A stretch of DNA of 64,000 nt from Candidatus Daviesbacteria bacterium (GTDB lineage: Bacteria > Patescibacteriota > Microgenomatia > Daviesbacterales > UBA10151), in NCBI GenBank assembly GCA_016183305.1, contig JACPEW010000006.1, positions 2,317 through 66,316 on the forward strand. Direction: 5' to 3'. Shown piece by piece: positions 16,585-30,114 of the stretch. The position numbers and the translations under genes are program-made. Every line of letters starts with the position of its first letter. The first letter of the stretch is position 1. Under the pieces are notes generated by a model that was given only the letters and a program-made list of their open reading frames with translations, did no database searches and was not told the origin of the DNA.

Positions 16585-18348
16585 TTAGCTCTTCATCCAC
16601 CTAGCCCTAGGGGTTTGGACTCTGCCAAATTTCTGGCCTAAGCGTAAAACTATGCTTAGTAAAATATAATAAGCTTTCCCATGATAATGTTCTGCTGCTT
16701 TACTTAAATGCTCATAAGCTTTTTGCTGACCAATTTTAGAAGTAGAACCTCCATGATAATGGATAAACTGACTAGCAGGCACAAAATAAATTAGTACTCC
16801 AAATTGCTTTAATCTTCTGCAGTATTCTATATCCTCAAAAAAGATAAAGGTTCCTTCATCCAACAGCCCTACTTTGTTAATTATCTTTCTTGGAATCATA
16901 AAACAGGCCATTACCAAACCTTCCACTTTACTAGGTTTTTCCCCTTGAGGAGCATACATAAAATAAGCTCCCTTCTTTAACAGGAAATATTCCTTAAAAG
17001 CCCCAAAGATAGTAGGCAGGTGGAAAACACTATCCTGCTCACTCATGTCCTCAAAAAATAACTTACCTCCTAAAACTGCCTTGCCTTTAAACTCATCTTC
17101 TGTTTTAACTAATTCAGTAAGACTATCCTTTAAAACTTTAATATCTGAATTAAGCATTAAATAATACTCACCTAAAGAATATTTAATAGTTTTGTTATAA
17201 CCTTTGGAAAATCCTTCATTGTCTTGGTTTTGTAAGTATTTAATCTTAGGCAAAAACTCTTTGATGGCTTCTTTACAAGGATCAATTTGACCATTATCTA
17301 AGACAATTACTTCCATATTCTTGGGATCAAACCCAGACCCTTGCTTAAAAATACTCTCCAGTAATTTCTTAGTTAAATCAGCAGTGTTGTAATTAACAAT
17401 CCCAATAGATAACTTCAGGGGATACTCTACGTTCCCACTTGACGAGTGGGAAGCTAGGTTTCCTTGGCCTGTAATGCCTAAATAAAAATCTAAAACTCCT
17501 TTTCTTTGGGCTGGCCTGCCAAAAATAAACAGTTTTAAAGCTTCCCTTAATAAAGCAAACTTAGTCCTATCTCTTCCATACTTCATCCCAAAAATTAATC
17601 TATTCCTGGTATGGTAATAATCAGTAATAGGGGAGCCTATACCAGTTGACTGGGAAACTTTGTGGTAAATAGAAGTTTTTCCATTATAGTAAACTTTAAA
17701 TTCAGCATTTTTTGCTCTTTTATTAAAATCACTATCCTCAAAATAGAGAAAGTATCTCTCATCTAATCCTCCTAATACCTCTTTTTTAATCATCACACAA
17801 GCTCCAGAAAAAATCTCAGTTTCCTCAACAGCATCATATTGACCCTTATCCACCTCATCAATACCCCTGTGAATATTCCCGATATTATCCCAATCAAATT
17901 TTCCTCCAGCAAACCACAATACTTTACCTATCTCTTCTTTTTTATATCTATCCTTATGAAACTCAAACCCAGGAGCAAAATAAATCTTAGGAGAAACTAA
18001 ACCAATTTTAGAATCTGATTCTAAAGTATTAACTAAGTCTGTAACTAAGTTAGTATCTTTTATCAAACAATCATTATTAACCAGCAAAAAATAATCAGCT
18101 CCCCAAATTTGAGCATAGTCTATACCCTTGTTATAACCTCCAGCAAAACCTAAATTTTGTCCAGTTTGTACTATATTTACCTCTGGAAAAGCTTTATGGA
18201 TAGCAGAAACGCTCCCATCAGACGAAGCATTATCCACCACGATTACCTGTTGCCTGTAACCTTTTGCCTGTAACCTTTTTAATGATTCCAAAAACTCTAT
18301 CGTGTCTTTCTTGCCACTATAATTAAGTGTAATTATTGCAATTTTCAT
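16585..18348 (-). CDS. tandem double GT2 glycosyltransferase (two GT-A domains in one ORF)
   Basis: Two copies of the ...IITLNYSG/..SIGIVNYN.., DNASSDGS/DNGQ, and xED motif pattern, joined by a linker that contains an R1 REP. Confidence 0.8.
   Translation of the reverse strand: MKIAIITLNYSGKKDTIEFLESLKRLQAKGYRQQVIVVDNASSDGSVSAIHKAFPEVNIVQTGQNLGFAGGYNKGIDYAQIWGADYFLLVNNDCLIKDTNLVTDLVNTLESDSKIGLVSPKIYFAPGFEFHKDRYKKEEIGKVLWFAGGKFDWDNIGNIHRGIDEVDKGQYDAVEETEIFSGACVMIKKEVLGGLDERYFLYFEDSDFNKRAKNAEFKVYYNGKTSIYHKVSQSTGIGSPITDYYHTRNRLIFGMKYGRDRTKFALLREALKLFIFGRPAQRKGVLDFYLGITGQGNLASHSSSGNVEYPLKLSIGIVNYNTADLTKKLLESIFKQGSGFDPKNMEVIVLDNGQIDPCKEAIKEFLPKIKYLQNQDNEGFSKGYNKTIKYSLGEYYLMLNSDIKVLKDSLTELVKTEDEFKGKAVLGGKLFFEDMSEQDSVFHLPTIFGAFKEYFLLKKGAYFMYAPQGEKPSKVEGLVMACFMIPRKIINKVGLLDEGTFIFFEDIEYCRRLKQFGVLIYFVPASQFIHYHGGSTSKIGQQKAYEHLSKAAEHYHGKAYYILLSIVLRLGQKFGRVQTPRARWMKS
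17427..17457 (-). repeat. R1 REP hairpin (loop variant TTGACGA) in GT2-GT2 linker
   Basis: TTCCCAC TTGACGA GTGGGAA GCTAG; reads ASHSSSGN on the gene strand. Confidence 0.8.
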
Positions 18349-19262
18349 ATCACCCTCAATCCTTCCATATAAATTTTTGCTCTTTTTGTCTTTCCCAAAA
18401 TAGAAAAAGCAATCACCCTTAAAATTAATCCTGCCACCAAAAATAGTTTAACAAACAGATAAAAATTATGGTAATGCTTTAACAAGTAATACTTAATTCC
18501 TTTTAGCTCATTTAAAAAACTTGAACTTAAATCAAAATTAGTAGAAGCTCCATGAAGATGTATTACAGAAACTTGTGGCACATACCAAATCTTAAAGTTT
18601 TTATCTTTAATCCTCTTACACCATTCAATCTCCTCCATATGCATAAAAAACTTCTCATCAAATCCAGTTGTTTTTTCCAAAACCTCTTTTTTCAGCATAA
18701 AAAAAGCACCCATAATCCAGCCGGCAGGATGAGCTTTAGAAAAATATTTTTTATCCTTGGGATGGAATGAGGGAACTAGCTTATTAATAACAGGTATTAA
18801 GCTCAAACCTAAAATCCAAAAAATTATATTTAAGGGGTTGGGTAAATTGCCGGCGCTTGGTTGTAAATTACCGGTAGCATAATTTAACCTGGCCCCCGAT
18901 ACATCACAGTTTAAATTAACCCTAAAATAAGCCAGGGCTTTATATAAACTTTCTTCTTCCAAATAAACATCAGAATTTAAAAGCAAAATAAAAGGATTTT
19001 TTGCCTGTTTTAAAGCTAAATTATTACCTTTAGAAAAGCCTAAATTTTCCTTGGAAACAATCAGTTTTACCCAGGGAAAATCAGCTTTAATCATCTGGGC
19101 TGAATTATCAGAAGACCCATTATCCAAAACAATTACCCCAACTTTATTCTTAAGTCTTGCTTCACAATATTCCTTTGTTAACTTAAGCTTGCTTAAACAT
19201 CTTGATGTCACATCCTTAGTATTAAAGCTTAAAATTATTACTGTTAAATCTAAATTACTCAT
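18345..19262 (-). CDS. GT2 family glycosyltransferase
   Basis: LTVIILSFN..., DNGSSDNS, EEIEWC motifs. Confidence 0.8.
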   Translation of the reverse strand: MSNLDLTVIILSFNTKDVTSRCLSKLKLTKEYCEARLKNKVGVIVLDNGSSDNSAQMIKADFPWVKLIVSKENLGFSKGNNLALKQAKNPFILLLNSDVYLEEESLYKALAYFRVNLNCDVSGARLNYATGNLQPSAGNLPNPLNIIFWILGLSLIPVINKLVPSFHPKDKKYFSKAHPAGWIMGAFFMLKKEVLEKTTGFDEKFFMHMEEIEWCKRIKDKNFKIWYVPQVSVIHLHGASTNFDLSSSFLNELKGIKYYLLKHYHNFYLFVKLFLVAGLILRVIAFSILGKTKRAKIYMEGLRVI

Positions 19263-19273
19263 AACTCTCCCTT

Positions 19274-19406
19274 GTCATTCTGGCGAGTCCCGGAGGGACG
19301 TGTCCGAGAATCCTCCTTTTGTCATCCTGGGCCCGCTTTGCGGGCTGCAGACTTGTCCAGGATCTTGATTCTGGAGTCGTCGCTAACCACCCCTCCCCAG
19401 AATGAC
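19274..19406. repeat. R2 cluster: three nested-hairpin units (two forward, one inverted)
   Basis: GTCATTCTGG..CCGAGAATC; GTCATCCTGG-GCCCGCTTTGCGGGC-..CCAGGATC; GATTCTGG..CCAGAATGAC. Confidence 0.8.
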
Positions 19407-19417
19407 AGACATCAAAT

Positions 19418-20467
19418 TTAAGCCTTAGTTTTTATCCTAAGCTTCCTATAATTTTCTAATAATTTAATTCCTCCTAAGACAAAATCCCTAAACAGGGGAG
19501 GGTACTTTTTATAGTAGTGTTTCTTATAAAAAATCTTCATAGCAGTGACTCCATAAATTGCAGTTTCTAATTTAGTTTCTTTTGGAACAGTAGTTAATGC
19601 TGTAGTCCAAAGCCCGGAAGAAGAACCTTTGTAATGGATTATTTTTACCTCCGGGTAATAATAAATCTTCCAGCTTTTTTCTTTTAAAGAGTAACAAAAT
19701 TCTATATCCTCACCATTCCAAAAATAATCTGTATTCCACCATCTTATTTGTTCTCCAGCAATTTTCCTTACCATCAAAAAAGCCCCTGTTAAGGAGTCAA
19801 TCTCATGGGCTTTATTAATATCTAAGTAAGAAGCTGTATAGCCAGAAAAAAGAGAGGATTTAGGAAAGATTTTAGACAGCCCGCTAAAGTAAGCAAAAGA
19901 ATTCCAGGGAGTAGGGAAACCTCTATGACAGGAGTAATCTAATCTTCCATCAGGCAGCTCAACCCTGCAAGTTAAGGCTCCAATATCAGGATCTGACAGT
20001 AACTTTTCTAAGGATTTTTGAATAGCATGATCAACAATAATAGTATCTGGATTTAAAAACAAAACCACTGGAGCTTTAGCAAATTTTACCCCCACATTAT
20101 TCCCAGCAGAGAAACCTAAGTTCTCCTTGTTTTCAATAAGCTGTACCACCCTATCACTCTTAATTTCTTCTTTGTCATACTGAGCTCCATTTTTGTCATT
20201 CTGGTTTGTCCAAAATCTTCCCTTTCCCCTGTCATTCCCGCCCGCTCCGCGGAGCGGGCGAAGGCGGGAATCTATACCAATAACTCTATATTTTCCCTTC
20301 ACAGCTTCTACAGACCCGTCAGAGGAAGCATTATCCACCACAATTACCTGCCACCTGTCTAACTTATCCTTACTTTGAAAAATTGAGTCTAAACATTTAA
20401 GCAATAAATCCTTAACATTGTAGTTAAGGATAATAATAGAAAGCTCTGGAGTCTTTAAATTTGTCAT
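19418..20467 (-). CDS. GT2 family glycosyltransferase carrying an R2-derived insertion
   Basis: LSIIILNYN, DNASSDGS, ENLGFSAGNN, EDIEFC; ~35-aa low-complexity insert between them. Confidence 0.8.
   Translation of the reverse strand: MTNLKTPELSIIILNYNVKDLLLKCLDSIFQSKDKLDRWQVIVVDNASSDGSVEAVKGKYRVIGIDSRLRPLRGAGGNDRGKGRFWTNQNDKNGAQYDKEEIKSDRVVQLIENKENLGFSAGNNVGVKFAKAPVVLFLNPDTIIVDHAIQKSLEKLLSDPDIGALTCRVELPDGRLDYSCHRGFPTPWNSFAYFSGLSKIFPKSSLFSGYTASYLDINKAHEIDSLTGAFLMVRKIAGEQIRWWNTDYFWNGEDIEFCYSLKEKSWKIYYYPEVKIIHYKGSSSGLWTTALTTVPKETKLETAIYGVTAMKIFYKKHYYKKYPPLFRDFVLGGIKLLENYRKLRIKTKA
20174..20272 (+). repeat. three tandem R2 units inside the GT2 CDS
   Basis: GTCATACTGAGC.., GTCATTCTGG..AAAATC, GTCATTCCCGCCCGCTCCGCGGAGCGGGCGAAGGCGGGAATC; translated as ...SRLRPLRGAGGNDRGKGRFWTNQNDKNGAQYDK... 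Confidence 0.75.
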
Positions 20468-20548: not shown

Positions 20549-20959
20549 TTAACGGACTCGGTGCCGGCGTTTCACACGAAGTTGGGCCAATGATTTTTCC
20601 AAATTAGCTAGAGTTTCTGCATATTCCTCATCAGACAAAGTTTGCTCCAAAGCTTGCTCAGCTCTTTTTTTGGCTTCTTCCACAGCTCTTTCATCAATAT
20701 CACCAGCATAAGTTGCCAAATCAGTCATAACAGTTAAGTTATTATCAGCAACCTGTAAAAACCCATCCCCAGTTACTAAAGATTCCACCTTGCCATTTTT
20801 TTTAATTATTAACTCTCCTGGTTCAAGTTTAGCCATCAAATTAGCATGGTTAGGAAGTATCCCAATTTCTCCCTGTTTAGTAGAAGCATTAACCTGGGAA
20901 ACCTCCTCATCTATTAACAATTTTTCTGGAGTAACTATCTTTAAATGCAACTGAGCCAT
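20549..20959 (-). CDS. atpC: F1 ATP synthase epsilon subunit
   Basis: LHLKIVTPEK...GILPNHANLM...LTVMTD and C-terminal helical hairpin. Confidence 0.85.
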   Translation of the reverse strand: MAQLHLKIVTPEKLLIDEEVSQVNASTKQGEIGILPNHANLMAKLEPGELIIKKNGKVESLVTGDGFLQVADNNLTVMTDLATYAGDIDERAVEEAKKRAEQALEQTLSDEEYAETLANLEKSLAQLRVKRRHRVR

Positions 20960-20973
20960 AAGCCTATTATATC

Positions 20974-22452
20974 CTAAATATAGCCTGAATGGTCAACTAT
21001 TTTTAAAACTTCTCTGGCATCCTCATCAATTAATACTGGTACTGGAATAATTTTACCTGTTTCTATCATTTCCCCTAAACCCTTATCCTCAATAATATCC
21101 CTTAGTAACCCTGCATTGGAACCTATTATTCTTTGTAAAACCTGGTTATTATCTTTTAAATCCCTAATCCCAACAGAATTACAAACAAATAAAATATATG
21201 GTTCATTTTTACCACCATGCATAATAGAAAGCATAGTATTAATATTTTCTATAGCCTGCCTTGGATCAGCTGGAGTAGAGGCAAAAGCCTGATTCTCCGG
21301 ATCAAACTTACCAATAGTTGACCCTCTCATAGCCACAGCCATATAAGATTCCTCATGCTTAGAAAAAGGCCTTTCTTCAATTTTAGCTATGTTTAAACAA
21401 AAGCCTGTTAAATACTGCAGCGCAATATTCCTAATTAACACAAACTTTAAAGTCTTTTTCTGGTTAGCTGTTAAATCCTGATAAAACTCATTTAAATAAT
21501 TTTCTACTTCTGTTTGAAGCTCTGATGCTACTTTTTGGTCAAGTATTGCCTCAGTAACAGATAAGATATTTTGAGAAAAAACAGTTAAATATTTTAAGTC
21601 TGTAAATTTTTGCCTGAATGAACCTAAAACTATATTTTTCTTAACAAAATATTCATCCAGCTGATCTTTATATTTATTAGCTAGGGAAGTGGTAGATAAA
21701 ACTTTTTTTGATTCAAAATTCAAAATAATCCCAAAGCTGTCAGTATCATAAACTGCTGGAATAGCCACTATTTTTTGTGGTTCTAAACCCAGCTGCTCCC
21801 TAAACTCATTGTACATATTAGAGATTGCAGTAATAGTTTTTTCCTTAATAATCTTTAGATTATTTTCTTCCAAAGAGAGTTTGGGGTCCAAAAGCCCTGT
21901 TTTTTTCTTAGCTAACATTGCCCCGCAACCATGATGAGGATCAAATAAGCTGGTGTGGGCTAAAACTATTTCCAACAGATCATTACCTGTGGTAGAAGTC
22001 CTTCTTAAAGCCTCATTTAAATCTGAAGAATCAGGGATTAACTTACCGTCTGATTTTCTTTTGATAACAGAAATTTCTGCTGCTGGAATTTCAAAATGCC
22101 TGGCAAACCTGCCTCCTAAAAAAATAGTAGGGATTCTTCCATCAATACAAAAAACAAAACCTAAGGAAACTCCCTCAGATAACTGCCTTTTTCTTTTAAT
22201 AATTTTTCTATATCCGGGGGTAGATAAAATTTTGGCCACCTGATTATTCCGTTCAATAATATTCCAAATCCTTGCCCTGTCTTTAACAGAAACCTTATGG
22301 CCAGTATGGGCACTAAGATGATCTAAATATAGGTTCAATTGTTCTTCTAAATAAGTTTTTGAGGCAGATAAACTAATCTGTCCTCTGTTATATATCTTTT
22401 CAAAAATACTTTTAACTCTTGTTATATTCAGATGCGGTTGTGGTATTTGCAT
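20974..22452 (-). CDS. CsoSCA-like (beta-class-related) carbonic anhydrase homologue, function unverified
   Basis: C102-I-D104-G-R106 and AH166TSLFDPHHGC176GA match the CxDxR / H-x10-C zinc-site pattern of carboxysomal CsoSCA; 492 aa. Confidence 0.5.
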   Translation of the reverse strand: MQIPQPHLNITRVKSIFEKIYNRGQISLSASKTYLEEQLNLYLDHLSAHTGHKVSVKDRARIWNIIERNNQVAKILSTPGYRKIIKRKRQLSEGVSLGFVFCIDGRIPTIFLGGRFARHFEIPAAEISVIKRKSDGKLIPDSSDLNEALRRTSTTGNDLLEIVLAHTSLFDPHHGCGAMLAKKKTGLLDPKLSLEENNLKIIKEKTITAISNMYNEFREQLGLEPQKIVAIPAVYDTDSFGIILNFESKKVLSTTSLANKYKDQLDEYFVKKNIVLGSFRQKFTDLKYLTVFSQNILSVTEAILDQKVASELQTEVENYLNEFYQDLTANQKKTLKFVLIRNIALQYLTGFCLNIAKIEERPFSKHEESYMAVAMRGSTIGKFDPENQAFASTPADPRQAIENINTMLSIMHGGKNEPYILFVCNSVGIRDLKDNNQVLQRIIGSNAGLLRDIIEDKGLGEMIETGKIIPVPVLIDEDAREVLKIVDHSGYI

Positions 22453-22565
22453 ATTGTTTAATCCATCATTATACTCTCAAATTACCTGTTTGATAAGTAG
22501 TCTGAGATTAAAAGATCTACATAAGATATCTTGTTTTCCTAAAATCTTTAACATAATATATTGTT

Positions 22566-22937
22566 ATGGCTGACTCAGATTATGACAAAATTGCCAAACT
22601 CTTTAAAGACCGGGTAAGAGACCTCAAAGATGTTGTAGAACTTATTAAACATAAAGTTGATAACATTCAAGTATTTCAAGACGCATCTTCTGAAAACATC
22701 CATTTAATGAAAGAACAGCAATCTTTAATGAATGAAAAATTGGATAATCTAGAACAAAATGTTAAAAAAATCCAGGAAAATGTTGATGCAGCAAGAGGGG
22801 ATATTGAATCACTCCATATGGATGTAAAAGGTATTAGAGAAAAAGAGAGTTTATTTCACTCAAGGAACAAAAGAGAAATTGATGAAATTAAAACTCACCT
22901 AGACATCCCCTTAATACCTGATACCCCTCAAATTTAG
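22566..22937 (+). CDS. hypothetical coiled-coil protein
   Basis: 123-aa charged helical ORF. Confidence 0.4.
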   Translation: MADSDYDKIAKLFKDRVRDLKDVVELIKHKVDNIQVFQDASSENIHLMKEQQSLMNEKLDNLEQNVKKIQENVDAARGDIESLHMDVKGIREKESLFHSRNKREIDEIKTHLDIPLIPDTPQI

Positions 22938-23012
22938 CTTCTGTTTAGAGCTTTACATTTTTCTTAACTAATCCTTATTAAAAAAAGACTATTTAGAGTT
23001 ATCCTTAAATTT

Positions 23013-23405
23013 ATGGTTAAGAGAATTGAGAGTATCATCTTATTTTCTGAAGATGCTAAAAATTTAGCTGAGTTTTATAAAGATAAGGTGGGTTTGGAGA
23101 TGACTATGGAGGCAGAAATAGGGGAGAAAGGAGAGGGTTTATATGGTTTTGAGTTTGGAGAAGAAAAAACAGCCCTTTATATAATGAATCATTCTAAAGT
23201 TAAAGGCAAAAACTCCCAACCAGAAAGAATTATTTTTAATCTGGAGGTTGATGATATAGAGAAAGAAATTAAAAAATTAGATGAGGCAGGAGTTAGAAAG
23301 ATTGCTGATATTTATCATATGCAAGAATATGGCTTAATTGCTACTTTTGAAGATATTGATGGCAATTACTTCCAATTAGTCCAAATCAGACCCGGTGAAG
23401 CCTGA
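23013..23405 (+). CDS. glyoxalase/VOC-fold protein
   Basis: 130 aa; beta-alpha-beta-beta-beta-like pattern, ...DIDGNYFQLVQ C-terminus typical of VOC family. Confidence 0.55.
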   Translation: MVKRIESIILFSEDAKNLAEFYKDKVGLEMTMEAEIGEKGEGLYGFEFGEEKTALYIMNHSKVKGKNSQPERIIFNLEVDDIEKEIKKLDEAGVRKIADIYHMQEYGLIATFEDIDGNYFQLVQIRPGEA

Positions 23406-24782
<1,377 letters not shown>

Positions 24783-24787
24783 TTATT

Positions 24788-24855
24788 GTCATTCTGAGCG
24801 ACTAGCGAATAATCTCTATATTAACCTTAAGATCCTTCACTGCGTTCAGGATGAC
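24788..24855. repeat. R2 composite (forward unit + inverted unit)
   Basis: GTCATTCTGAGCGACTAGCGAATAATC ... GATCCTTCACTGCGTTCAGGATGAC between atpG and atpD. Confidence 0.8.
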
Positions 24856-24860
24856 ACTCA

Positions 24861-25787
24861 TTATGTCATCACAGCTGCTGCTGTTGCTATTTCTAAAATT
24901 TCTTTGGTAATACCAGCCTGTCTGGTCTGATTAAAAGTTAACTTCAAATCATCCAAAAGCTCTAAAGCATTATCTGTAGCATTTTGCATAGCTATCATTC
25001 TAGCAGATTGCTCAGAAGCTTTAGTCTCAAGCAAAGCTTGGTAAATTTTAGTTTCAATATGATGAAGTAAAATAAAATCCAATAAAACATCCGGGTCAGG
25101 TTCAAAAAGGAATTCTTTATTGTCATTCTGAGCGACTGGCTCGCTCCGCGGAGCGAGCGAAGAATCTTTAGACTTGTCCTTATAATCTTGAGATCCTTCA
25201 TCTCCCAGATTCCGGATAACAGACGCTAAATCTACAGGTAGAAGCTGGACTAATTTTGCTTGCTGCCTTAGGGTGGAAACAAATTCTGGATAAACAATTA
25301 ATACTTGTCCTACTTCACCAGCATTAAAAGCTTCTATCACTAATCTGGATAATTGTTTGGCCTGCCTGAAAGTAACTTTTTCAGGATTTTCAAAATCAGC
25401 TTTTAGATTTTTACTAGTCCTGGCCACATATGCCCTGCCTTTTTTACCCAGGGTGTAATAAACAGTATCTGCAGGCAAATTTGAAGAAAAAATTGTCCTG
25501 GTTAAATTAGTATTTAAAGCCCCAACCAAGCCTTTATCAGTTGAGAGTAAAATTACCCCGGAGGTTTTTATGCTTTTGGGAGATAATAAAAGATGAGACT
25601 GTATATTAATTCTAGGTAAAAGCCTTAATAAGGCTTGGCCTAAATTTTGGGTGTATGGCCTGCCGGAAAGAGCCTGGTTTTGTGCCCTTTTCATCTTAGT
25701 AGCAGCCACCATCTGCATAGCCTTAGTTATTTGGCTTGTATTCTTAATAGATTTTATTCTTCTTCTTAATTCTCTAGTACTAGCCAT
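24861..25787 (-). CDS. atpG: F1 ATP synthase gamma subunit with R2-derived insertion
   Basis: MASTRELRRRIKSIKNTSQITKAMQMVAATK N-terminus, ...SARMIAMQNATDNA...ITKEILEI C-terminus. Confidence 0.9.
   Translation of the reverse strand: MASTRELRRRIKSIKNTSQITKAMQMVAATKMKRAQNQALSGRPYTQNLGQALLRLLPRINIQSHLLLSPKSIKTSGVILLSTDKGLVGALNTNLTRTIFSSNLPADTVYYTLGKKGRAYVARTSKNLKADFENPEKVTFRQAKQLSRLVIEAFNAGEVGQVLIVYPEFVSTLRQQAKLVQLLPVDLASVIRNLGDEGSQDYKDKSKDSSLAPRSEPVAQNDNKEFLFEPDPDVLLDFILLHHIETKIYQALLETKASEQSARMIAMQNATDNALELLDDLKLTFNQTRQAGITKEILEIATAAAVMT
25122..25166 (+). repeat. R2 unit inside atpG CDS (45 nt, in-frame)
   Basis: GTCATTCTGAGCGACTG-GCTCGCTCCGCGGAGCGAGC-GAAGAATC; reads KDSSLAPRSEPVAQNDN on the gene strand. 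Confidence 0.8.
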
Positions 25788-25803
25788 ATTTTAATTAAGT
25801 TTT

Positions 25804-25863
25804 CCAAGAACCAAATTACAAGTATTCCAAACTTTGGTACTTGTTATTTGGATACTTGGTACT
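25804..25863. repeat. R3 heptamer-array hairpin
   Basis: CCAAGAACCAAATTACAAGTATTCCAAA / TTTGGTACTTGTTATTTGGATACTTGG between atpA stop and atpG start. Confidence 0.65.
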
Positions 25864-27194
25864 TATTTTTTAGTTCCTTTCATAAATATCCCCGCAAATT
25901 CTTTAGTCACCTTTTCTAAATCTCCAATTTTCCCCTCATCTAAAACCTTTTTATCTGCCAGCTCTGCTAATAACTTCTTCTGTCTTAACTTAAGATGTGC
26001 CAAATATTTTTCCTCAAATTCTTTAATCCTGAAAACCTCTACCTCATCCATATACCCCTGAGTAACAGCCCACAACACCACTACCTGTTCCTCAACCGGA
26101 ACAGGGGAGTAGGGAGGCTGTTTTAATACTTCAGTAATTCTCCTGCCTCTTTCTATCTGCAGTTTTGTTTGAGGATCCAAGTCAGAAGCAAATTGGGCAA
26201 AAGCCTGTAACTCCCTAAATTGAGCAAGGTCTAATTTTAACCTACCAGCCACACTCTTCATTGCTTTAGTCTGGGCAGCCCCACCAACTCTTGAAACAGA
26301 AATTCCCACATTTAAAGCTGGTCTTACTCCTGCAAAAAACAAATCGGGTTCAAGGTAAATCTGCCCATCAGTGATGGATATAACATTAGTGGGGATATAG
26401 GCAGACATATCATTAGCCTGTGTTTCAATTACTGGCAAGGCAGTTAAAGACCCGCCGCCAAAATCTTTATTTAATCTTGCTGCCCGCTCCAAAAGTCTTG
26501 AATGTAAGTAAAACACATCTCCAGGGTAAGCCTCGCGCCCGGAAGGCCTTCTTAAAAGTAAAGACACCTGCCTGTAAGCCCAGGCATGTTTTGACAGATC
26601 ATCATAAATAATTAAGGCATCCTTACCCTGATCCATAAAAAACTCACCCATAGCACAACCAGCATAAGGGGCAAGGTATTGCATGGTAGCAGAATCAGAA
26701 GCAGAGGCAGAAACTACAATAGTATGTTTTAAGCTGCCAGTCTCTTCCAGTTTAGCCACAAGCTGGGCTACCTTGGAAGTTTTTTGGCCAATTGCTACAT
26801 AAATACAAATAACATCTTCTTGATTTATAATTGTATCTATAGCAATTGTTGTTTTCCCGGTGTTCCTATCCCCAATAATCAGTTCCCTTTGACCTCTGCC
26901 AATCGGAATTAAAGCATCAATTGCTTTTATCCCGGTCTGAAGCGGGGTAGTAACTGATTGCCTGGTAATAACTCCAGGGGCAATTTTTTCAACCGGATAA
27001 AGGGTTTTTGTTTTAATTGGGCCTTTGCCATCAATAGGAGAGCCTAAAGCATCAACCACCCTCCCAACCAAACCCTCACCAACTGGAACTTGCAGGATCC
27101 TTCCTGTAGTTTTGACTGTATCTCCCTCTTTTATTTTGGTAAAATCCCCAAAAATAACTGCTCCAACACTATATTCTTCCAGGTTTAAAGCCAA
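25863..27194 (-). CDS. atpA: F1 ATP synthase alpha subunit (5' end anomalous)
   Basis: Walker A GDRNTGKT and the whole nucleotide-binding and C-terminal domains are present. The ORF starts at the ALNLEE block via TTG; an N-terminal-like mini-ORF at 27265-27185 is in another frame. Confidence 0.88.
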
Positions 27195-27273
27195 ACCATA
27201 TACCCCTTTGCTTTAAGTTTTAAGCCTTTAATCTGGTTTTCAATCTTGTTTATTAAGTCACTCATAGCTATTT

Positions 27274-27332
27274 GACAAACTGAGTACAATTTCTTCGCTC
27301 AGTTTGTCACCCTGAGCGATTAGCGAAGGATC
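27274..27332. repeat. R2-related hairpins upstream of atpA
   Basis: GACAAACTGAG..CTCAGTTTGTC (11-bp stem) overlapping GTCACCCTGAGCGATTAGCGAAGGATC. Confidence 0.7.
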
Positions 27333-27357
27333 TACTTCATGAGTCCGCTAAGCTCCT

Positions 27358-27753
27358 TTACCTTCCTATTGCCTCCTTTATTTGTTGTATTTTCCCAGCT
27401 ACTGATTCATCCCAGATCTCATCTCCAACCCTTAATTTAAACCCTCCTAAAATATCAGCATTTATATTAACTAAAACTTTGGTAATCTTAACTTTTTTTT
27501 CTACAATCCCTTTTACTTTTTTAATTTGGGATTGGGCCAAAGGCATTGTGGTCTCTATATATAAAGTATGCTCCCTTTCTTTTCTTTTTAAACTGCGTAA
27601 ATATTCTGATAAGGATATTATTGCTTCAGCCCTGGGTAAGGATTTCAAAGCTTTAATTGATCTAACAACCTGGCTCTCTGAAATCTTATTATCTTTGAAG
27701 CTTAAATCAACCAACCTGCTGACTGTTTTTTGTAATTGCTTTTTAATTTTCAT
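27358..27753 (-). CDS. atpH: F1 ATP synthase delta (OSCP) subunit, short
   Basis: Operon position; C-terminal ...GGFKLRVGDEIWDESVAGKIQQIK pattern. Confidence 0.65.
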   Translation of the reverse strand: MKIKKQLQKTVSRLVDLSFKDNKISESQVVRSIKALKSLPRAEAIISLSEYLRSLKRKEREHTLYIETTMPLAQSQIKKVKGIVEKKVKITKVLVNINADILGGFKLRVGDEIWDESVAGKIQQIKEAIGR

Positions 27754-27780
27754 AATTTTAATACTTTAAAATTTCAAACT

Positions 27781-28275
27781 TTACTTATAATTATTAATAT
27801 TTTTTGCCAAAATTTCTTTCTTTTGGCTTTGTGTTAATACTTTACCAGTAATCCTCTCCAGCGCCAAAACTACAAAATCTGCCACGCTGTCTTTAATTTC
27901 TTGCTGAAGCTTAACTTTTTCAGCCTCATTTAGTTTTTTAGCATCTTCCGCAGCTCGAGTAACAATATCCTTATATTTTTTCTTTGCTTCCTCTATTATT
28001 TGCGCTGCAGAATCTCCTGCTTCCTTAATAATTTTTTCACCCTCTTTGGCTGACTTTAAGATTGCTTCCTGTTCGCGTTCGCCAGTCTCATTTAACCTTT
28101 TCTCAATCTCTTCAGCATTCTTTAAACTCTCTTCAATCTTGTTTTTTCTGGTTTCCAATACTCCTAGCAAAGGTTTATATAATAACTTCTTTAAAATAAA
28201 AAGAAGTATTAAAAAATTAACCACTTGCGCGGCCAAAAGTATTGGATCTATGCCGAACTGTTTTAAAATCTCCAT
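27781..28275 (-). CDS. atpF: Fo ATP synthase b subunit
   Basis: N-terminal TM followed by long charged helix; operon position. Confidence 0.7.
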   Translation of the reverse strand: MEILKQFGIDPILLAAQVVNFLILLFILKKLLYKPLLGVLETRKNKIEESLKNAEEIEKRLNETGEREQEAILKSAKEGEKIIKEAGDSAAQIIEEAKKKYKDIVTRAAEDAKKLNEAEKVKLQQEIKDSVADFVVLALERITGKVLTQSQKKEILAKNINNYK

Positions 28276-28281
28276 AGAAAA

Positions 28282-28356
28282 TTAGGGGTTAGTTTGTAGG
28301 TTTTAGGTTAAAGTTTTCTTATGATTATTACAACCTACCCACTACTCCCTATAACC
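28282..28356. repeat. R3 heptamer-array hairpin (TAGGTT / AACCTA units)
   Basis: TTAGGGGTTAGTTTGTAGGTTTTAGGTTA ... ACAACCTACCCACTACTCCCTATAACC between atpF and atpE. Confidence 0.6.
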
Positions 28357-28575
<219 letters not shown>

Positions 28576-29298
28576 TTAGTGTTCTGCTGCATGTTTTTCT
28601 GACAACAACACCATAAATACCAGTGTTAACATCATGAAAACAGCTGCCTGTACAAATCCTACAATAATCTCTAAGAAATAAAAAGGGAGTGGCACTATAA
28701 AGGCAAAAATCCTTGAGACAGTTGCCAGCACCACTTCTCCTGCAAATATATTACCAAAAAGTCTGAAAGATAGCGATACCACTTTTGTCACCTCACCAAC
28801 CAACTCCAATAAACCAACAAATAAAAATATTGGGTTTAAAGTAAACCATTTCTTTAAATAATCCACAATCCCTAAGTAATAAATAGCAAAGCCATGAGTT
28901 AAAACAGCAGAAGTTAAAGCCAATGCCAAAGTCATATTTAAATCAGAGTTCATTGAACGGAATAATGGTTCCTTATGATAGGTAATGGTGGCAAACCCAG
29001 GGAACAGGCCTAATAAGTTACTAAATAAAATATAAAGGAAAAAAGTCATTACAATAGGAAAAAATACCTTAGCTTTTTTGCTCCCTGCCAAATCCAAAAC
29101 CGTGGTATAGCCAAAATCTAAAATTAGCTCAAATAAATTCTGCAATCCAGAAGGCACTAACTTAGCTTTACGGCCAGCCAAAAAAGCAATAATGATCAGT
29201 ATCACCATCACTATCCAACTAACCAGCAGGGTATTGGTAATTGGCAAACTTTTAAAATAGCCCAAAACTTCGGGCTTTAAAACAATCGCTTCTTCCAT
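28576..29298 (-). CDS. atpB: Fo ATP synthase a subunit
   Basis: Polytopic; SLSFRLFGNIFAGE with the conserved Arg. Confidence 0.88.
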   Translation of the reverse strand: MEEAIVLKPEVLGYFKSLPITNTLLVSWIVMVILIIIAFLAGRKAKLVPSGLQNLFELILDFGYTTVLDLAGSKKAKVFFPIVMTFFLYILFSNLLGLFPGFATITYHKEPLFRSMNSDLNMTLALALTSAVLTHGFAIYYLGIVDYLKKWFTLNPIFLFVGLLELVGEVTKVVSLSFRLFGNIFAGEVVLATVSRIFAFIVPLPFYFLEIIVGFVQAAVFMMLTLVFMVLLSEKHAAEH

Positions 29299-29436: not shown

Positions 29437-30114
29437 TTAATCATCAGCGTCAATTAACAATTTAGAAAGAGCAGGGCTATCAACTTCAGTTTCCTCCACA
29501 AAAGACTGATAAGTTAAATTAGGGTTAGTTTTAGAAAAGTAAGAAGAGATAAGATTTGTATCACAAAATGGATGCGGTTCTCCTGATAAATAATAAGGAT
29601 ATGAGGAATATGGATAAAATCTATGTTCCCACATCGGAAGTGGGAAGCTGTTTCTATGGATATATTTTGATAAATGAAGTAAGTACTCATCTGTCTCAAT
29701 TAGCTTTGCCTTAAATCCACCCTGAAATAAAGAACCTACTCTCTTGTGTCTGGTATTGAAATACCGAGTGTAACTATCTGCCACTTTCCTTAAAAATTCT
29801 GATATACCTCCATCAGCCAATTGTTGAATTAGCAAATGAAAATGATTCGGCATTAAACAGTAACAATATATCCTCACCAGCTCTGTTTGATTATCTATCT
29901 TTTTAAGCTTTATCACACCTCTTCTGAAATCTGAAAGCTTCATTGGAACCGGAGATTTACGGTAATAGTCCAAAGTTTCTAAAAACCTTAGGTGGTCCCA
30001 TCTGTCCATAAAGGTCTTCCTTTTCTCAACACCGCGGTTATAAATATGGTAAAAGCTGCCACTAATAAATGGGGGATTAACCACGCTTCTATTGTCTAAT
30101 CCGTATTCCCACAC
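29437..30114 (-). CDS. REP-associated tyrosine transposase (RAYT; IS200/IS605 TnpA-like Y1 HUH enzyme)
   Basis: YHIYNRG, HUH motif LMPNHFHLLI, Tyr motif SKYIHRN; 225 aa. Confidence 0.75.
   Translation of the reverse strand: MWEYGLDNRSVVNPPFISGSFYHIYNRGVEKRKTFMDRWDHLRFLETLDYYRKSPVPMKLSDFRRGVIKLKKIDNQTELVRIYCYCLMPNHFHLLIQQLADGGISEFLRKVADSYTRYFNTRHKRVGSLFQGGFKAKLIETDEYLLHLSKYIHRNSFPLPMWEHRFYPYSSYPYYLSGEPHPFCDTNLISSYFSKTNPNLTYQSFVEETEVDSPALSKLLIDADD
29621..29650 (+). repeat. R1 REP hairpin inside the RAYT CDS
   Basis: TTCCCAC ATCGGAA GTGGGAA GCTG; reads SFPLPMWE immediately after YIHRN. Confidence 0.8.

What the first reader, a model, noticed from the sequence alone, without database searches (positions are those of the whole stretch)
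20974..22452. CsoSCA-like carbonic anhydrase homologue immediately upstream of a detached atpC
The 492-aa ORF has C102-x-D104-x-R106 and H166-x9-C176 (VFCIDGRIP ... LAHTSLFDPHHGCGAM). In the carboxysomal shell carbonic anhydrase CsoSCA the zinc site is Cys173/His242/Cys253 with the Asp175-Arg177 dyad. That gives the same order, similar spacing (64 and 10 residues here versus 69 and 11) and similar overall length (~514 aa). A later block (AVYDTDSFGI) also resembles the CsoSCA (G)VDTDTDAI block as I recall it. No carboxysome, RuBisCO or shell genes are in the window. Instead the gene ends 14 bp before atpC on the same strand. A non-carboxysomal member coupled to the ATP synthase epsilon subunit has no obvious precedent that I know of. 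It could relate to bicarbonate or pH handling, or it could be a zinc protein with a new function.
Basis: partly seen in the sequence, partly recalled or inferred. Interest (0 to 1): 0.62.

Follow-up and report, generated by a model that had tools for sequence, protein, structure and literature searches.

The report
Carbonic anhydrase inside ATP synthase operon
A candidate-phylum (CPR) bacterium carries a very divergent relative of the carboxysome carbonic anhydrase CsoSCA with every catalytic residue intact, and in most related loci I sampled this gene sits inside or directly next to the ATP synthase operon, an arrangement I could not find reported and which points to an unrecognised link between CO2/bicarbonate chemistry and the proton-driven ATPase.

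Summary
The 492-aa ORF (20974-22452, minus strand) of a Ca. Daviesbacteria genome has the stated motifs and ends 14 bp before atpC. The CsoSCA interpretation is supported. No Pfam, NCBIfam or PDB sequence hit exists, but the AlphaFold model (pLDDT 86) hits only CsoSCA structures strongly (Foldseek E 4e-10 to 2e-8, full length). A profile-profile alignment (P 4e-5) puts all seven CsoSCA catalytic residues in register. Those residues are present in 78-80 of 80 family members, against 23% mean column identity. Non-carboxysomal CsoSCA homologues ("CsoSCA2") are already published, so that part has precedent, but this family falls below the Pfam models used to define them. What appears new is the context. 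In 15 loci the gene lies between atpD and atpC. In 6 it lies directly upstream of atpB. In 5 a zeta-class (CDCA-like) carbonic anhydrase homologue follows it. Seven loci are unlinked. I found no paper reporting this. Best reading: a soluble zinc carbonic anhydrase co-expressed with a proton-coupled F1Fo ATPase, equilibrating CO2/HCO3-/H+ at its cytoplasmic face. Homology is firm, activity is probable, and the coupling mechanism is inferred. I rate it a new variant of a known kind, interest about 0.66.

The parts
20974..22452 (-). CsoSCA-like beta-class carbonic anhydrase homologue, 492 aa (NCBI HYU93_00985, annotated 'hypothetical protein', Ca. Daviesbacteria). Layout: helical N-terminal region (about 1-90), catalytic alpha/beta domain (about 95-250), helical segment (about 254-349), and a C-terminal beta-CA-like domain without a zinc site (about 360-492).
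   Evidence: ORF; identity to P0001; AlphaFold2 model pLDDT 86.3, pTM 0.86; Foldseek top four hits all CsoSCA; hhalign to authentic CsoSCA P 3.9e-5; soluble, max Kyte-Doolittle(19) 1.48.
22135..22149 (-). Codons for C102-I-D104-G-R106: first zinc ligand plus the Asp-Arg dyad (equivalent to CsoSCA C173, D175, R177).
   Evidence: Translation check; conserved 80/80, 80/80 and 79/80; aligned to CADGR of CsoSCA.
21925..21957 (-). Codons for H166...C176 (HTSLFDPHHGC): second and third zinc ligands (equivalent to CsoSCA H242 and C253).
   Evidence: Translation check; conserved 80/80 and 80/80; aligned to YHFSSLDPQHEGC / YHFSTSDPTHSGC of CsoSCA.
21739..21747 (-). Codons for D236-T237-D238, the block shared with CsoSCA VDTDTDAI.
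   Evidence: Conserved in the close clade and less strictly family-wide: D 65/80, T 72/80, D 51/80.
21349..21357 (-). Codons for H366-E-E368, contributed by the start of the C-terminal domain (equivalent to CsoSCA active-site H397 and E399).
   Evidence: hhalign pairs KHEESYMAV with GHAERYISV; conserved 78/80 and 78/80; H397/E399 are listed as active-site residues in PMC9164163 Table 2.
20549..20959 (-). atpC, F1 epsilon subunit, 136 aa, starting 14 nt after the CA-like gene's stop. Probably co-transcribed with it.
   Evidence: PF02823 3.4e-25, PF00401 1.2e-8, TIGR01216 1.3e-32; gap sequence.
22468..22496 (-). Best sigma-70-like match in the region (TTATCA-17-TATAAT, 10/12), 16 nt upstream of the ATG. 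Candidate promoter of a CA-like/atpC bicistron.
   Evidence: Only suggestive: promoter-like matches are not enriched over shuffles (16 found, 12.6 expected).
23406..29298 (-). Rest of the F1Fo operon upstream on the same strand: atpB 28576-29298, atpE 28357-28560 (c-subunit, AEAIAIY, H+-type by motif), atpF 27781-28275, atpH 27358-27753, atpA 25863-27194, atpG 24861-25787, atpD 23406-24773.
   Evidence: ORFs and translations; tblastn map.
22566..23405 (+). Two opposite-strand genes that split atpD from the CA-like gene: a 123-aa coiled-coil protein (weak XhlA-like match) and a 130-aa glyoxalase/VOC-fold protein. They are context, not part of the system.
   Evidence: Pfam. Relatives carry other unrelated genes at this position.

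Best explanation
The ORF encodes a soluble, cytoplasmic, zinc-dependent beta-class carbonic anhydrase of the CsoSCA architecture: one polypeptide with an active catalytic domain packed against a degenerate second beta-CA-like domain that contributes His/Glu to the single active site. It belongs to a deeply divergent, CPR-restricted (Microgenomates-type: Daviesbacteria, Roizmanbacteria and relatives) branch that existing CsoSCA profile models do not capture. It is not carboxysomal. In this lineage it is expressed as part of the proton-coupled F1Fo ATP synthase operon. In the window it forms a bicistron with atpC. I infer that it keeps CO2 + H2O <-> HCO3- + H+ at equilibrium at the cytoplasmic face of the ATPase. 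In a fermentative CPR cell whose F1Fo probably runs as an ATP-driven proton pump, that would supply pumpable protons from CO2 and buffer local pH, analogous to the CA plus H+-ATPase pairing of acid-secreting animal cells. It could also supply bicarbonate, a known activating anion of F1-ATPases. What is shown: homology, the complete conserved catalytic set, and recurrent operon linkage. What is inferred: CA activity, co-transcription, and the proton or bicarbonate coupling itself.
For: Homology: Foldseek top four hits are all CsoSCA at E 4e-10 to 1.7e-8 over the full length. The A2 profile hits all CsoSCA PDB entries in register. hhalign gives P 3.9e-5 over 308 columns. Three of 80 members weakly touch PF20686. 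Catalytic competence: all seven CsoSCA active-site residues listed in PMC9164163 Table 2 align and are present in 78-80 of 80 sequences, while mean column identity is 23%. Soluble: no hydrophobic segment. Linkage: 15 loci have atpD...gene...atpC on one strand, and 6 loci have the gene directly upstream of atpBEFHAGDC. Gaps are as small as 2-6 nt to atpD (L001, L018), 5 nt to atpB (L019) and 14-23 nt to atpC (window, L006). The gene is retained while the surrounding cargo genes turn over. A second carbonic-anhydrase-type gene (a CDCA/zeta-CA homologue; Pfam 39-80 bits against a cutoff of 29.2; PDB CDCA1 E 2e-23; metal site intact) follows it in 5 loci, which independently points to CO2/HCO3- chemistry. 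The c-subunit lacks the Na+-binding signature (interpreted from my own knowledge of the I. tartaricus c-ring). In the unlinked clade the gene follows VIT1, another H+-coupled transporter family.
Against: No activity data exist. No curated HMM recognises the protein. The sequence-level statistics to CsoSCA are modest (hhalign probability 71%, HMMER E 0.15-1.1), so the homology call rests mainly on the predicted fold plus motif register. Zinc-site geometry in the model could not be inspected. Seven loci (the VIT1-gene-fmt clade, L016, L029) lack any atp linkage, so the enzyme does not strictly need the ATPase. The atpD-atpC gap is a hotspot for unrelated insertions, so part of pattern (a) could be inherited position rather than selection. 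The locus sample is biased towards relatives of my queries. The direction in which CPR F-ATPases operate is unknown. The promoter evidence is weak.
Confidence: 0.5

Rival explanations
1. It is an ordinary housekeeping cytoplasmic carbonic anhydrase of the CsoSCA2 type, supplying bicarbonate for carboxylations or buffering pH. Its position in the atp operon is a historical accident: an old insertion into a permissive gap, inherited vertically, with no functional tie to the ATPase.
For: The atpD-atpC gap accumulates unrelated genes: glyoxalase, coiled-coil, NUDIX, PIG-L, DUF6602, Exo_endo_phos. Seven loci have the gene elsewhere. CsoSCA2 proteins are described as free cytoplasmic enzymes of unknown role.
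Against: There are two different positions relative to the operon: between beta and epsilon, and 5' of subunit a. Both have very short same-strand gaps, and both occur within one clade (P0071 against P0072, about 42% identical). The gene persists while its neighbours turn over. A zeta-CA-like gene is co-recruited into the same gap in 5 loci.
Confidence: 0.2
2. It is a physically associated accessory subunit or regulator of the CPR F1Fo complex. Either it makes CO2 hydration vectorial and energy-coupled, as CupA/B on NDH-1 and DabA on DabB do, or it gates ATPase activity according to CO2/bicarbonate.
For: Operon embedding between structural subunits with 2-6 nt gaps. In pattern (b) it occupies the slot upstream of atpB. 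A family-specific helical N-terminal region does not align with CsoSCA (the local hhalign alignment starts at residue 94) and could be a docking module. There is precedent for CA-like proteins as parts of bioenergetic complexes: DAB (bioRxiv 10.1101/476713, listed) and, from my own knowledge, plant complex I gamma-CAs and cyanobacterial Cup proteins.
Against: There is no direct evidence of any interaction. Family members function in genomes or loci without adjacent atp genes. The protein is soluble with no membrane anchor. F1Fo has no known site for such a subunit.
Confidence: 0.12
3. It uses the beta-CA zinc site on a different small substrate, for example as a carbonyl sulfide or carbon disulfide hydrolase, rather than acting as a true carbonic anhydrase.
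For: From my own knowledge, COS hydrolase and CS2 hydrolase are beta-CA-fold enzymes with the same Cys-His-Cys and Asp-Arg residues, so the conserved residues do not discriminate between them. The zeta-CA CDCA1 also hydrolyses CS2 (PMC8217695, listed), and a CDCA-like gene is its neighbour in 5 loci.
Against: The closest structural relatives are all true CAs. There are no sulfur-metabolism genes nearby in any locus examined. Linkage to the atp operon is easier to rationalise for H+/HCO3- chemistry.
Confidence: 0.06
4. It is a catalytically inert zinc-binding scaffold or assembly factor for the ATPase that merely retains the CA fold.
For: Its position in the operon, in some genomes in the slot usually occupied by the assembly factor atpI (the atpI comparison is from my own knowledge). 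Degenerate CsoSCA-like proteins exist in Thiomicrospira.
Against: Inert derivatives lose catalytic residues, as the Thiomicrospira examples do. Here the metal ligands, the Asp-Arg dyad and the His/Glu pair are all present in 78-80 of 80 sequences.
Confidence: 0.05

Closest known systems
CsoSCA (CsoS3), the alpha-carboxysomal beta-class carbonic anhydrase (PDB 2FGY, 8THM, 9G4T; Pfam PF20687/PF20686/PF08936)
   Same: Same overall fold over the full length (Foldseek E 4e-10). Same single-active-site pseudo-dimer architecture. All seven active-site residues are in register (C/D/R/H/C plus H/E). Shared DTD block. Similar length (492 against 514 aa).
   Different: Only 11-12% identity, and below all curated HMM thresholds. 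Not in a cso operon, and the window has no RuBisCO, shell, CsoS2 or CsoS4 genes. The N-terminal region is shorter and does not align, so the Rubisco- and shell-binding and hexamer 'hook' features described for CsoSCA are not evident. There is a longer helical segment between the catalytic and C-terminal domains (C-to-H spacing 190 against 144). The genomic partner is the F1Fo ATPase.
CsoSCA2: CsoSCA homologues outside carboxysome loci (Sutter, Kerfeld and Scott 2022, PMC9164163)
   Same: Non-carboxysomal. Active plus defunct domain. All catalytic residues present. Truncated N-terminus. Reported in heterotrophs and in some CPR phyla (Falkow-, Magasanik-, Moran-, Pace-, Staskawicz-, Uhrbacteria). 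Uncharacterised.
   Different: CsoSCA2 was defined by matches to Pfam08936 in IMG genomes, and Pulsford et al. 2024 likewise used PF08936. This family does not match that model. Daviesbacteria and Roizmanbacteria are not in the published list. The term 'ATP synthase' does not occur in either paper's main text. I could not obtain CsoSCA2 sequences to place this family relative to them.
Energy-coupled carbonic-anhydrase-like systems: DAB (DabA/DabB) and cyanobacterial NDH-1 CupA/CupB
   Same: A zinc beta-CA-like protein is genetically tied to an ion-translocating membrane complex. The idea is that proton flux and CO2 hydration are linked.
   Different: The partner here is the F1Fo ATP synthase, not an Mrp/NuoL-type antiporter subunit. 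There is no PF10070 (DabA) match and no Proton_antipo_M neighbour. Physical coupling is untested.
CA II with V-ATPase or H+/K+-ATPase in acid-secreting animal cells ('transport metabolon'; from my own knowledge)
   Same: A cytoplasmic CA supplies protons from CO2 to an ATP-driven proton pump. This is the functional analogy I favour.
   Different: That is an alpha-class CA in eukaryotic cells and not an operon arrangement. No bacterial F-ATPase example is known to me or was found in the literature searches.
Zeta-class carbonic anhydrase CDCA1 of diatoms (PF18484; PDB 3BOB, 3BOH, 3UK8)
   Same: This applies to the neighbouring gene in 5 related loci, not to the window's ORF. It is a single CDCA repeat at E 2e-23 with the CxDxR, His and Cys metal site in register.
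   Different: It is a bacterial (CPR), single-repeat protein encoded inside an atp operon. It is absent from this window.

Membership tests
CsoSCA (alpha-carboxysomal carbonic anhydrase) | Zinc ligands Cys173 / His242 / Cys253 | tested here: met
   C102, H166 and C176 align to them. Each is present in 80/80 family members.
CsoSCA (alpha-carboxysomal carbonic anhydrase) | Asp175-Arg177 dyad in the CxDxR motif | tested here: met
   D104 is 80/80 and R106 is 79/80. CIDGR aligns to CADGR.
CsoSCA (alpha-carboxysomal carbonic anhydrase) | Active-site His397 / Glu399 | tested here: met
   H366 and E368 align (KHEESYMAV against GHAERYISV). Each is present in 78/80 members.
CsoSCA (alpha-carboxysomal carbonic anhydrase) | Catalytic beta-CA domain plus a degenerate, zinc-free C-terminal beta-CA-like domain in one chain | tested here: met
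   Full-length Foldseek alignments to 8THM, 9G4T and 2FGY (about 535-548 columns, TM 0.50-0.55). hhalign covers residues 94-477. No Cys/His/Cys set is conserved in residues 360-492 family-wide. Caveat: this rests on a predicted model, and rmsd is about 8 A.
CsoSCA (alpha-carboxysomal carbonic anhydrase) | Match to curated family models (PF20687, PF20686, PF08936; NCBIfam) above threshold | tested here: not met
   No CsoSCA model is listed even at E<=10 for this protein. Only 3/80 relatives touch PF20686, with a best E of 0.014.
CsoSCA (alpha-carboxysomal carbonic anhydrase) | Encoded in a cso operon with RuBisCO, CsoS2, and CsoS1/CsoS4 shell genes | tested here: not met
   tblastn with rbcL, rbcS, BMC, EutN and CsoS2 finds nothing in the window. 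None of the related loci has them.
CsoSCA (alpha-carboxysomal carbonic anhydrase) | Extended N-terminal domain with the Rubisco-binding peptide and hexamer 'hook' motif | tested here: inconclusive
   The local profile alignment starts only at residue 94, and the N-terminal region is about 90 aa against about 144. The specific motifs were not searched individually.
CsoSCA (alpha-carboxysomal carbonic anhydrase) | CO2 hydration activity, zinc content | not testable with these tools
   Requires recombinant protein.
CsoSCA2 (non-carboxysomal CsoSCA homologues, PMC9164163) | Located outside carboxysome loci, shortened N-terminus, active plus defunct domain, all catalytic residues present | tested here: met
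   Description of CsoSCA2.
CsoSCA2 (non-carboxysomal CsoSCA homologues, PMC9164163) | Operational criterion used by the authors: membership of Pfam08936 | tested here: not met
   The criterion is quoted.
CsoSCA2 (non-carboxysomal CsoSCA homologues, PMC9164163) | Phylogenetic placement inside the published CsoSCA2 clade | not tested
Canonical beta-carbonic anhydrase (PF00484) | Pfam match and the H-x-x-C spacing of the second and third zinc ligands | tested here: not met
   No PF00484 hit. The spacing is H-x9-C (H-x7-C in some relatives). Structural similarity to canonical beta-CAs is only E 0.05-1.
DabA (PF10070) energy-coupled CA | PF10070 match and an adjacent DabB (Proton_antipo_M) gene | tested here: not met
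   No such Pfam hit. No such neighbour in any locus.

The most novel reading that the evidence does not exclude
In Microgenomates-type CPR bacteria the F1Fo ATPase has carbonic-anhydrase accessory components: a CsoSCA-like beta-CA and, ancestrally, a zeta-CA-like partner. These dock on the complex and make it either an ATP- or PMF-coupled vectorial CO2-hydration machine (a third kind of energy-coupled CA after NDH-1/Cup and DAB) or a CO2/bicarbonate-gated ATP synthase. Either would give a handle on the unsolved question of what ATP synthases do in organisms without an electron-transport chain.
Probability: 0.12. Interest if true: 0.9.

Novelty: new variant of a known kind. Interest (0 to 1): 0.66.

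Why it matters
There are three reasons.

First, it extends the CsoSCA lineage, long treated as a carboxysome speciality, to a deeply divergent branch. That branch has at least 124 clusters at 50% identity, its named members are all CPR bacteria, and current family models miss it. This bears on the published suggestion that carboxysomal CsoSCA arose from free-living relatives.

Second, a carbonic anhydrase held inside the ATP synthase operon in two alternative positions, often with a second carbonic anhydrase of a different class, is an arrangement I could not find reported. It implies that CO2/bicarbonate/proton equilibration matters to how these ATPases work.

Third, CPR bacteria lack respiratory chains, and the role and direction of their F1Fo ATPases is an open question. 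A conserved, assayable partner enzyme makes that question experimentally approachable through heterologous expression of a compact operon such as L018.

As a by-product, it documents bacterial single-repeat homologues of the diatom cadmium/zinc zeta-carbonic anhydrase.

Tried and rejected
- Direct searches gave nothing meaningful. Pfam, NCBIfam and PDB phmmer with the single sequence, and the close-clade profile against the PDB, returned only chance hits such as LTXXQ, OTCase and NDUFS7.
- The A2 profile's top PDB hits were designed armadillo repeats matching a short C-terminal stretch. I judged them spurious: low-complexity, repeated 30-residue matches.
- Searching the 5.8-billion-protein set with the A2 profile only re-found the same 68 close relatives, which wasted one capped search.
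- Searching with a Cyanobium CsoSCA fragment returned only short fragments. Their contigs are frameshifted long-read assemblies. I therefore rebuilt authentic CsoSCA sequences from PDB alignments.
- The weak 'atpA/atpD-like' hits near distant homologues turned out to be Rho, so those loci are not atp-linked.
- Promoter and terminator scans were not informative beyond one candidate promoter.
- Chance motif: rejected on conservation.
- Canonical beta-CA: rejected because CsoSCA hits are about 8 orders of magnitude better and the H-to-C spacing differs.
- Degraded CsoSCA remnant: rejected because the catalytic residues are intact and the family is large and under constraint.
- I could not inspect model coordinates, so zinc-site geometry is unverified.
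Full report
**1.

The window carries a 492-codon ORF on the minus strand at 20974-22452. It is identical to NCBI protein HYU93_00985, annotated 'hypothetical protein', from a Candidatus Daviesbacteria MAG. The window is 36% G+C.

- The gene's TAG stop is followed by 14 nt and then the ATG of a bona fide F1 epsilon subunit gene (PF02823 3e-25; TIGR01216 1e-32).
- atpC is separated from atpD (23406-24773) by this gene plus two opposite-strand genes: a coiled-coil protein and a glyoxalase-fold protein.
- The rest of the operon (atpB-E-F-H-A-G-D) lies upstream on the same strand.
- The window has no RuBisCO, BMC shell, CsoS2 or CsoS4 homologue.

**2. What the protein is**

Direct profile searches are negative. 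No CsoSCA, beta-CA or DabA model of Pfam or NCBIfam is hit even at E<=10, and phmmer against all PDB sequences finds nothing meaningful.

The protein nevertheless belongs to a sizeable family.
- There are 68 close relatives at 49% identity or more.
- An exhaustive HMMER scan of 1.84 billion representatives finds 124 clusters, down to about 23% identity. Most are full-length proteins of about 460-530 aa.
- Where the source names them, they come from Daviesbacteria, Roizmanbacteria or 'Patescibacteria group'.

In an 80-member alignment with 23% mean column identity, the only invariant columns are C102, D104, H166 and C176. R106 is present in 79/80, and H366 and E368 in 78/80 each. That is the signature of a constrained catalytic metal site.

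An AlphaFold2 model built from the family alignment is confident (pLDDT 86.3, pTM 0.86). Foldseek against the PDB gives four strong hits, and all four are CsoSCA:
- Cyanobium 8THM (two chains) and H. neapolitanus 9G4T and 2FGY.
- E 4.4e-10 to 1.7e-8, probability 1.00, TM 0.50-0.55, alignments spanning the whole chain.
- Canonical beta-CAs follow only at E>=0.05.

The diverse family profile also picks up every CsoSCA entry in the PDB. The hits are weak (E 0.15-1.1) but always cover the same segment. The printed alignment pairs iiiCiDGRi...LeivlaHtslsdpd.hgCgam with ITPCADGRL...LKVALYHFSSLDPQHEGCAAHG.

To test the register properly I recovered authentic CsoSCA sequences. H. neapolitanus residues 53-513 and the Cyanobium sequence came from PDB alignments. 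A third came from a metagenomic alpha-carboxysome locus. I then ran hhalign against the 80-member family alignment. The result was 308 aligned columns with P 3.9e-5 and probability 71%.

| This protein | CsoSCA |
|---|---|
| C102 | C173 |
| D104 | D175 |
| R106 | R177 |
| H166 | H242 |
| C176 | C253 |
| H366 | H397 |
| E368 | E399 |

The DTD block aligns to VDTDTDAI. These seven residues are exactly the CsoSCA active-site residues tabulated by Sutter et al..

The protein has no hydrophobic segment and is therefore predicted to be soluble.

**3. What is already known**

Sutter, Kerfeld and Scott (2022, PMC9164163) described 'CsoSCA2': CsoSCA homologues outside carboxysome loci. They are widespread in autotrophs and heterotrophs, including several CPR phyla, have truncated N-termini and all catalytic residues, and were still unstudied.

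However, both that survey and the phylogeny of Pulsford et al. (2024) were drawn from Pfam PF08936 members. This family does not match that model. The phrase 'ATP synthase' does not occur in either paper's main text. Full-text searches combining carbonic anhydrase with the ATP synthase operon, atpC/atpD, CPR or Patescibacteria found no report of such linkage.

**4. The genomic context is the unusual part**

I mapped atp genes around family members in 28 loci from genomes and metagenomes.

| Pattern | Arrangement | Loci |
|---|---|---|
| (a) | atpB-E-F-H-A-G-D ... gene ... atpC, all on one strand | 15, including the window; proteins 37-70% identical to the query |
| (b) | gene directly upstream of an uninterrupted atpBEFHAGDC | 6; proteins down to 35% identical to one another |
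| (c) | no atp linkage | 7 |

- In pattern (a) the gaps can be as small as 2-6 nt after atpD (L001, L018) and 14-23 nt before atpC (window, L006).
- In pattern (b) the gap is as small as 5 nt (L019).
- In pattern (c), five loci have the gene flanked by VIT1 and/or an opposite-strand fmt, L029 has fmt upstream, and L016 has uppS-gene-Fic. The weak ATPase-like hits nearby are Rho.
- The genes between atpD and the CA-like gene, and between it and atpC, differ from genome to genome, while the CA-like gene is always retained.
- In five pattern (a) loci the CA-like gene is followed by a roughly 215-250-aa (one copy truncated) protein that passes Pfam's threshold for the cadmium carbonic anhydrase repeat (PF18484; 39-80 bits against a cutoff of 29.2). 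It matches all three repeats of diatom CDCA1 at E about 2e-23, with its own CxDxR, His and Cys metal site in register.
- The most compact example, L018, reads atpBEFHAGD-(6 nt)-CsoSCA-like-(49 nt)-CDCA-like-(19 nt)-atpC.
- The window lacks the CDCA-like gene.

A rough NJ tree rooted on CsoSCA places the 'a plus zeta' form in both major clades, with pattern (b) and the unlinked VIT1 clade nested among them. This is compatible with an ancestral atp-embedded state followed by relocation and loss. The tree has no support values, and the locus sample is biased towards my queries.

**5. How it most likely works**

Shown:
- homology to CsoSCA;
- a complete, conserved catalytic set;
- solubility;
- recurrent same-strand, short-gap linkage to F1Fo genes in two positions;
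- frequent co-occurrence with a second CA-type gene.

Inferred:
- The protein is an active zinc CA.
- In the window it is co-transcribed with atpC. The best sigma-70-like match in the region lies 16 nt upstream of its ATG, but such matches are not enriched here.
- Its role is to keep CO2/HCO3-/H+ equilibrated at the cytoplasmic face of a proton-coupled ATPase.

The c-subunit (AEAIAIY, with no Gln and no Ser/Thr) lacks the Na+-binding signature as I know it from the I. tartaricus c-ring.

In a fermentative CPR cell the F1Fo is generally thought to act at least partly as an ATP-driven proton pump. A cytoplasmic CA would then deliver pumpable protons from metabolic or environmental CO2 and damp local alkalinisation. 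This is the logic of CA II with proton ATPases in acid-secreting animal cells (my own knowledge). Bicarbonate, a classic activating anion of F1-ATPases (my own knowledge), is an alternative link.

I give about 0.95 to CsoSCA homology, about 0.7 to CA activity, about 0.6 to a real functional tie to the ATPase, and about 0.3 to the specific proton-supply mechanism. That makes about 0.5 for the statement as a whole.

**6. Rivals**

| Rival | Confidence | Main argument |
|---|---|---|
| Housekeeping CA whose position is a historical accident in an insertion-prone gap | 0.2 | Favoured by the cargo turnover and the unlinked clades. Disfavoured by the two alternative operon positions, the tight gaps and the co-recruited zeta-CA. 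|
| Physically docked accessory subunit making an energy-coupled or CO2-gated ATPase | 0.12 | The most novel reading and not excluded, but there is no interaction evidence. |
| COS or CS2 hydrolase | 0.06 | The conserved residues cannot discriminate. The nearest structures are true CAs and no sulfur genes are nearby. |
| Inert scaffold | 0.05 | Contradicted by conservation of the non-ligand catalytic residues. |

**7. Verdict**

Free CsoSCA homologues are already known, and the partner is the atp operon rather than epsilon alone.

The protein is a new, very divergent branch of a known enzyme kind. Its conserved embedding in F1Fo operons, often together with a zeta-CA homologue, appears to be unreported. 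I rate it a new variant of a known kind, with interest 0.66. The decisive work is biochemical (zinc content, CA activity, complementation) and structural or biochemical tests of association with the ATPase.

Noticed in passing
L001 8613-9353; L018 9556-10293; L008 1174-1935; L028 11417-12061; L025 6336-6530 (partial): Single-repeat homologues of the diatom cadmium/zinc zeta-class carbonic anhydrase CDCA1 are encoded in CPR bacteria, always between the CsoSCA-like gene and atpC. They score 39-80 bits on Pfam PF18484, match PDB CDCA1 at E 2e-23, and have the CxDxR/His/Cys metal site in register. None is present in the window.
   Followed up: yes
window 25863-27357 (minus strand): The atpA ORF starts at a TTG and lacks about 55 N-terminal residues present in orthologues (tblastn matches begin at residue 54 of the L001 and L018 atpA). 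A plausible N-terminus, [21 protein letters not shown], lies just upstream in another frame. This suggests a frameshift or assembly error, or a truncated alpha subunit.
   Followed up: partly
window 22566-23405 (+); L002 4432-5892 and 7529-9438; L003 3563-5908 and 7482-8300: The interval between atpD and atpC is a hotspot for unrelated, often opposite-strand genes that differ between related genomes: an XhlA-like coiled-coil protein and glyoxalase here; NUDIX, PIG-L, DUF6602, Exo_endo_phos and unannotated proteins elsewhere. As a result atpC is detached from atpD in most loci of this clade (compact in L018).
   Followed up: partly
L010, L011, L012, L013, L017: In the clade not linked to atp genes, the CsoSCA-like gene is flanked by a VIT1-family transporter gene (VIT1 detected in L011, L013, L017) on the same strand and by an opposite-strand methionyl-tRNA formyltransferase gene (in all five). 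queA-tgt lies upstream and rho downstream in L011. This is a second conserved neighbourhood with a putatively H+-coupled transporter.
   Followed up: partly
window 28357-28560 (minus strand): The ATP synthase c-subunit (67 aa) has the carboxylate in AFAEAIAIY, with Leu where Na+-binding c-rings have Gln and no Ser/Thr after the Glu. By motif it looks proton-coupled. This judgement is from memory of the I. tartaricus c-ring and was not tested.
   Followed up: partly
window 29437-30114 (minus strand): A 225-aa ORF immediately upstream of atpB contains an HFHLLI-type motif reminiscent of IS200/REP-associated Y1 transposases. It was not checked against any profile.
   Followed up: no
window 16585-20467 (minus strand): Three consecutive genes downstream of atpC look like family-2 glycosyltransferases by their N-terminal motifs (…IIILNYN…DNASSDGS…). 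The 349-aa one carries an odd Arg/Gly/Asn-rich insertion (RLRPLRGAGGNDRGKGRFWTNQNDKNG). None was profiled.
   Followed up: no
L005, L008, L009, L010, L013 (record titles): ENA MAG records titled 'uncultured Gammaproteobacteria bacterium isolate binchicken_...' carry loci whose atp genes are 70-87% identical to the Daviesbacteria window and which encode this family. The taxonomic label looks like a placeholder or a mis-assignment.
   Followed up: no
L002 541-1305 and 2235-3024: In one relative, two sets of three small unannotated ORFs (63-117 aa) are inserted between atpA and atpG and between atpG and atpD, further fragmenting the operon.
   Followed up: no
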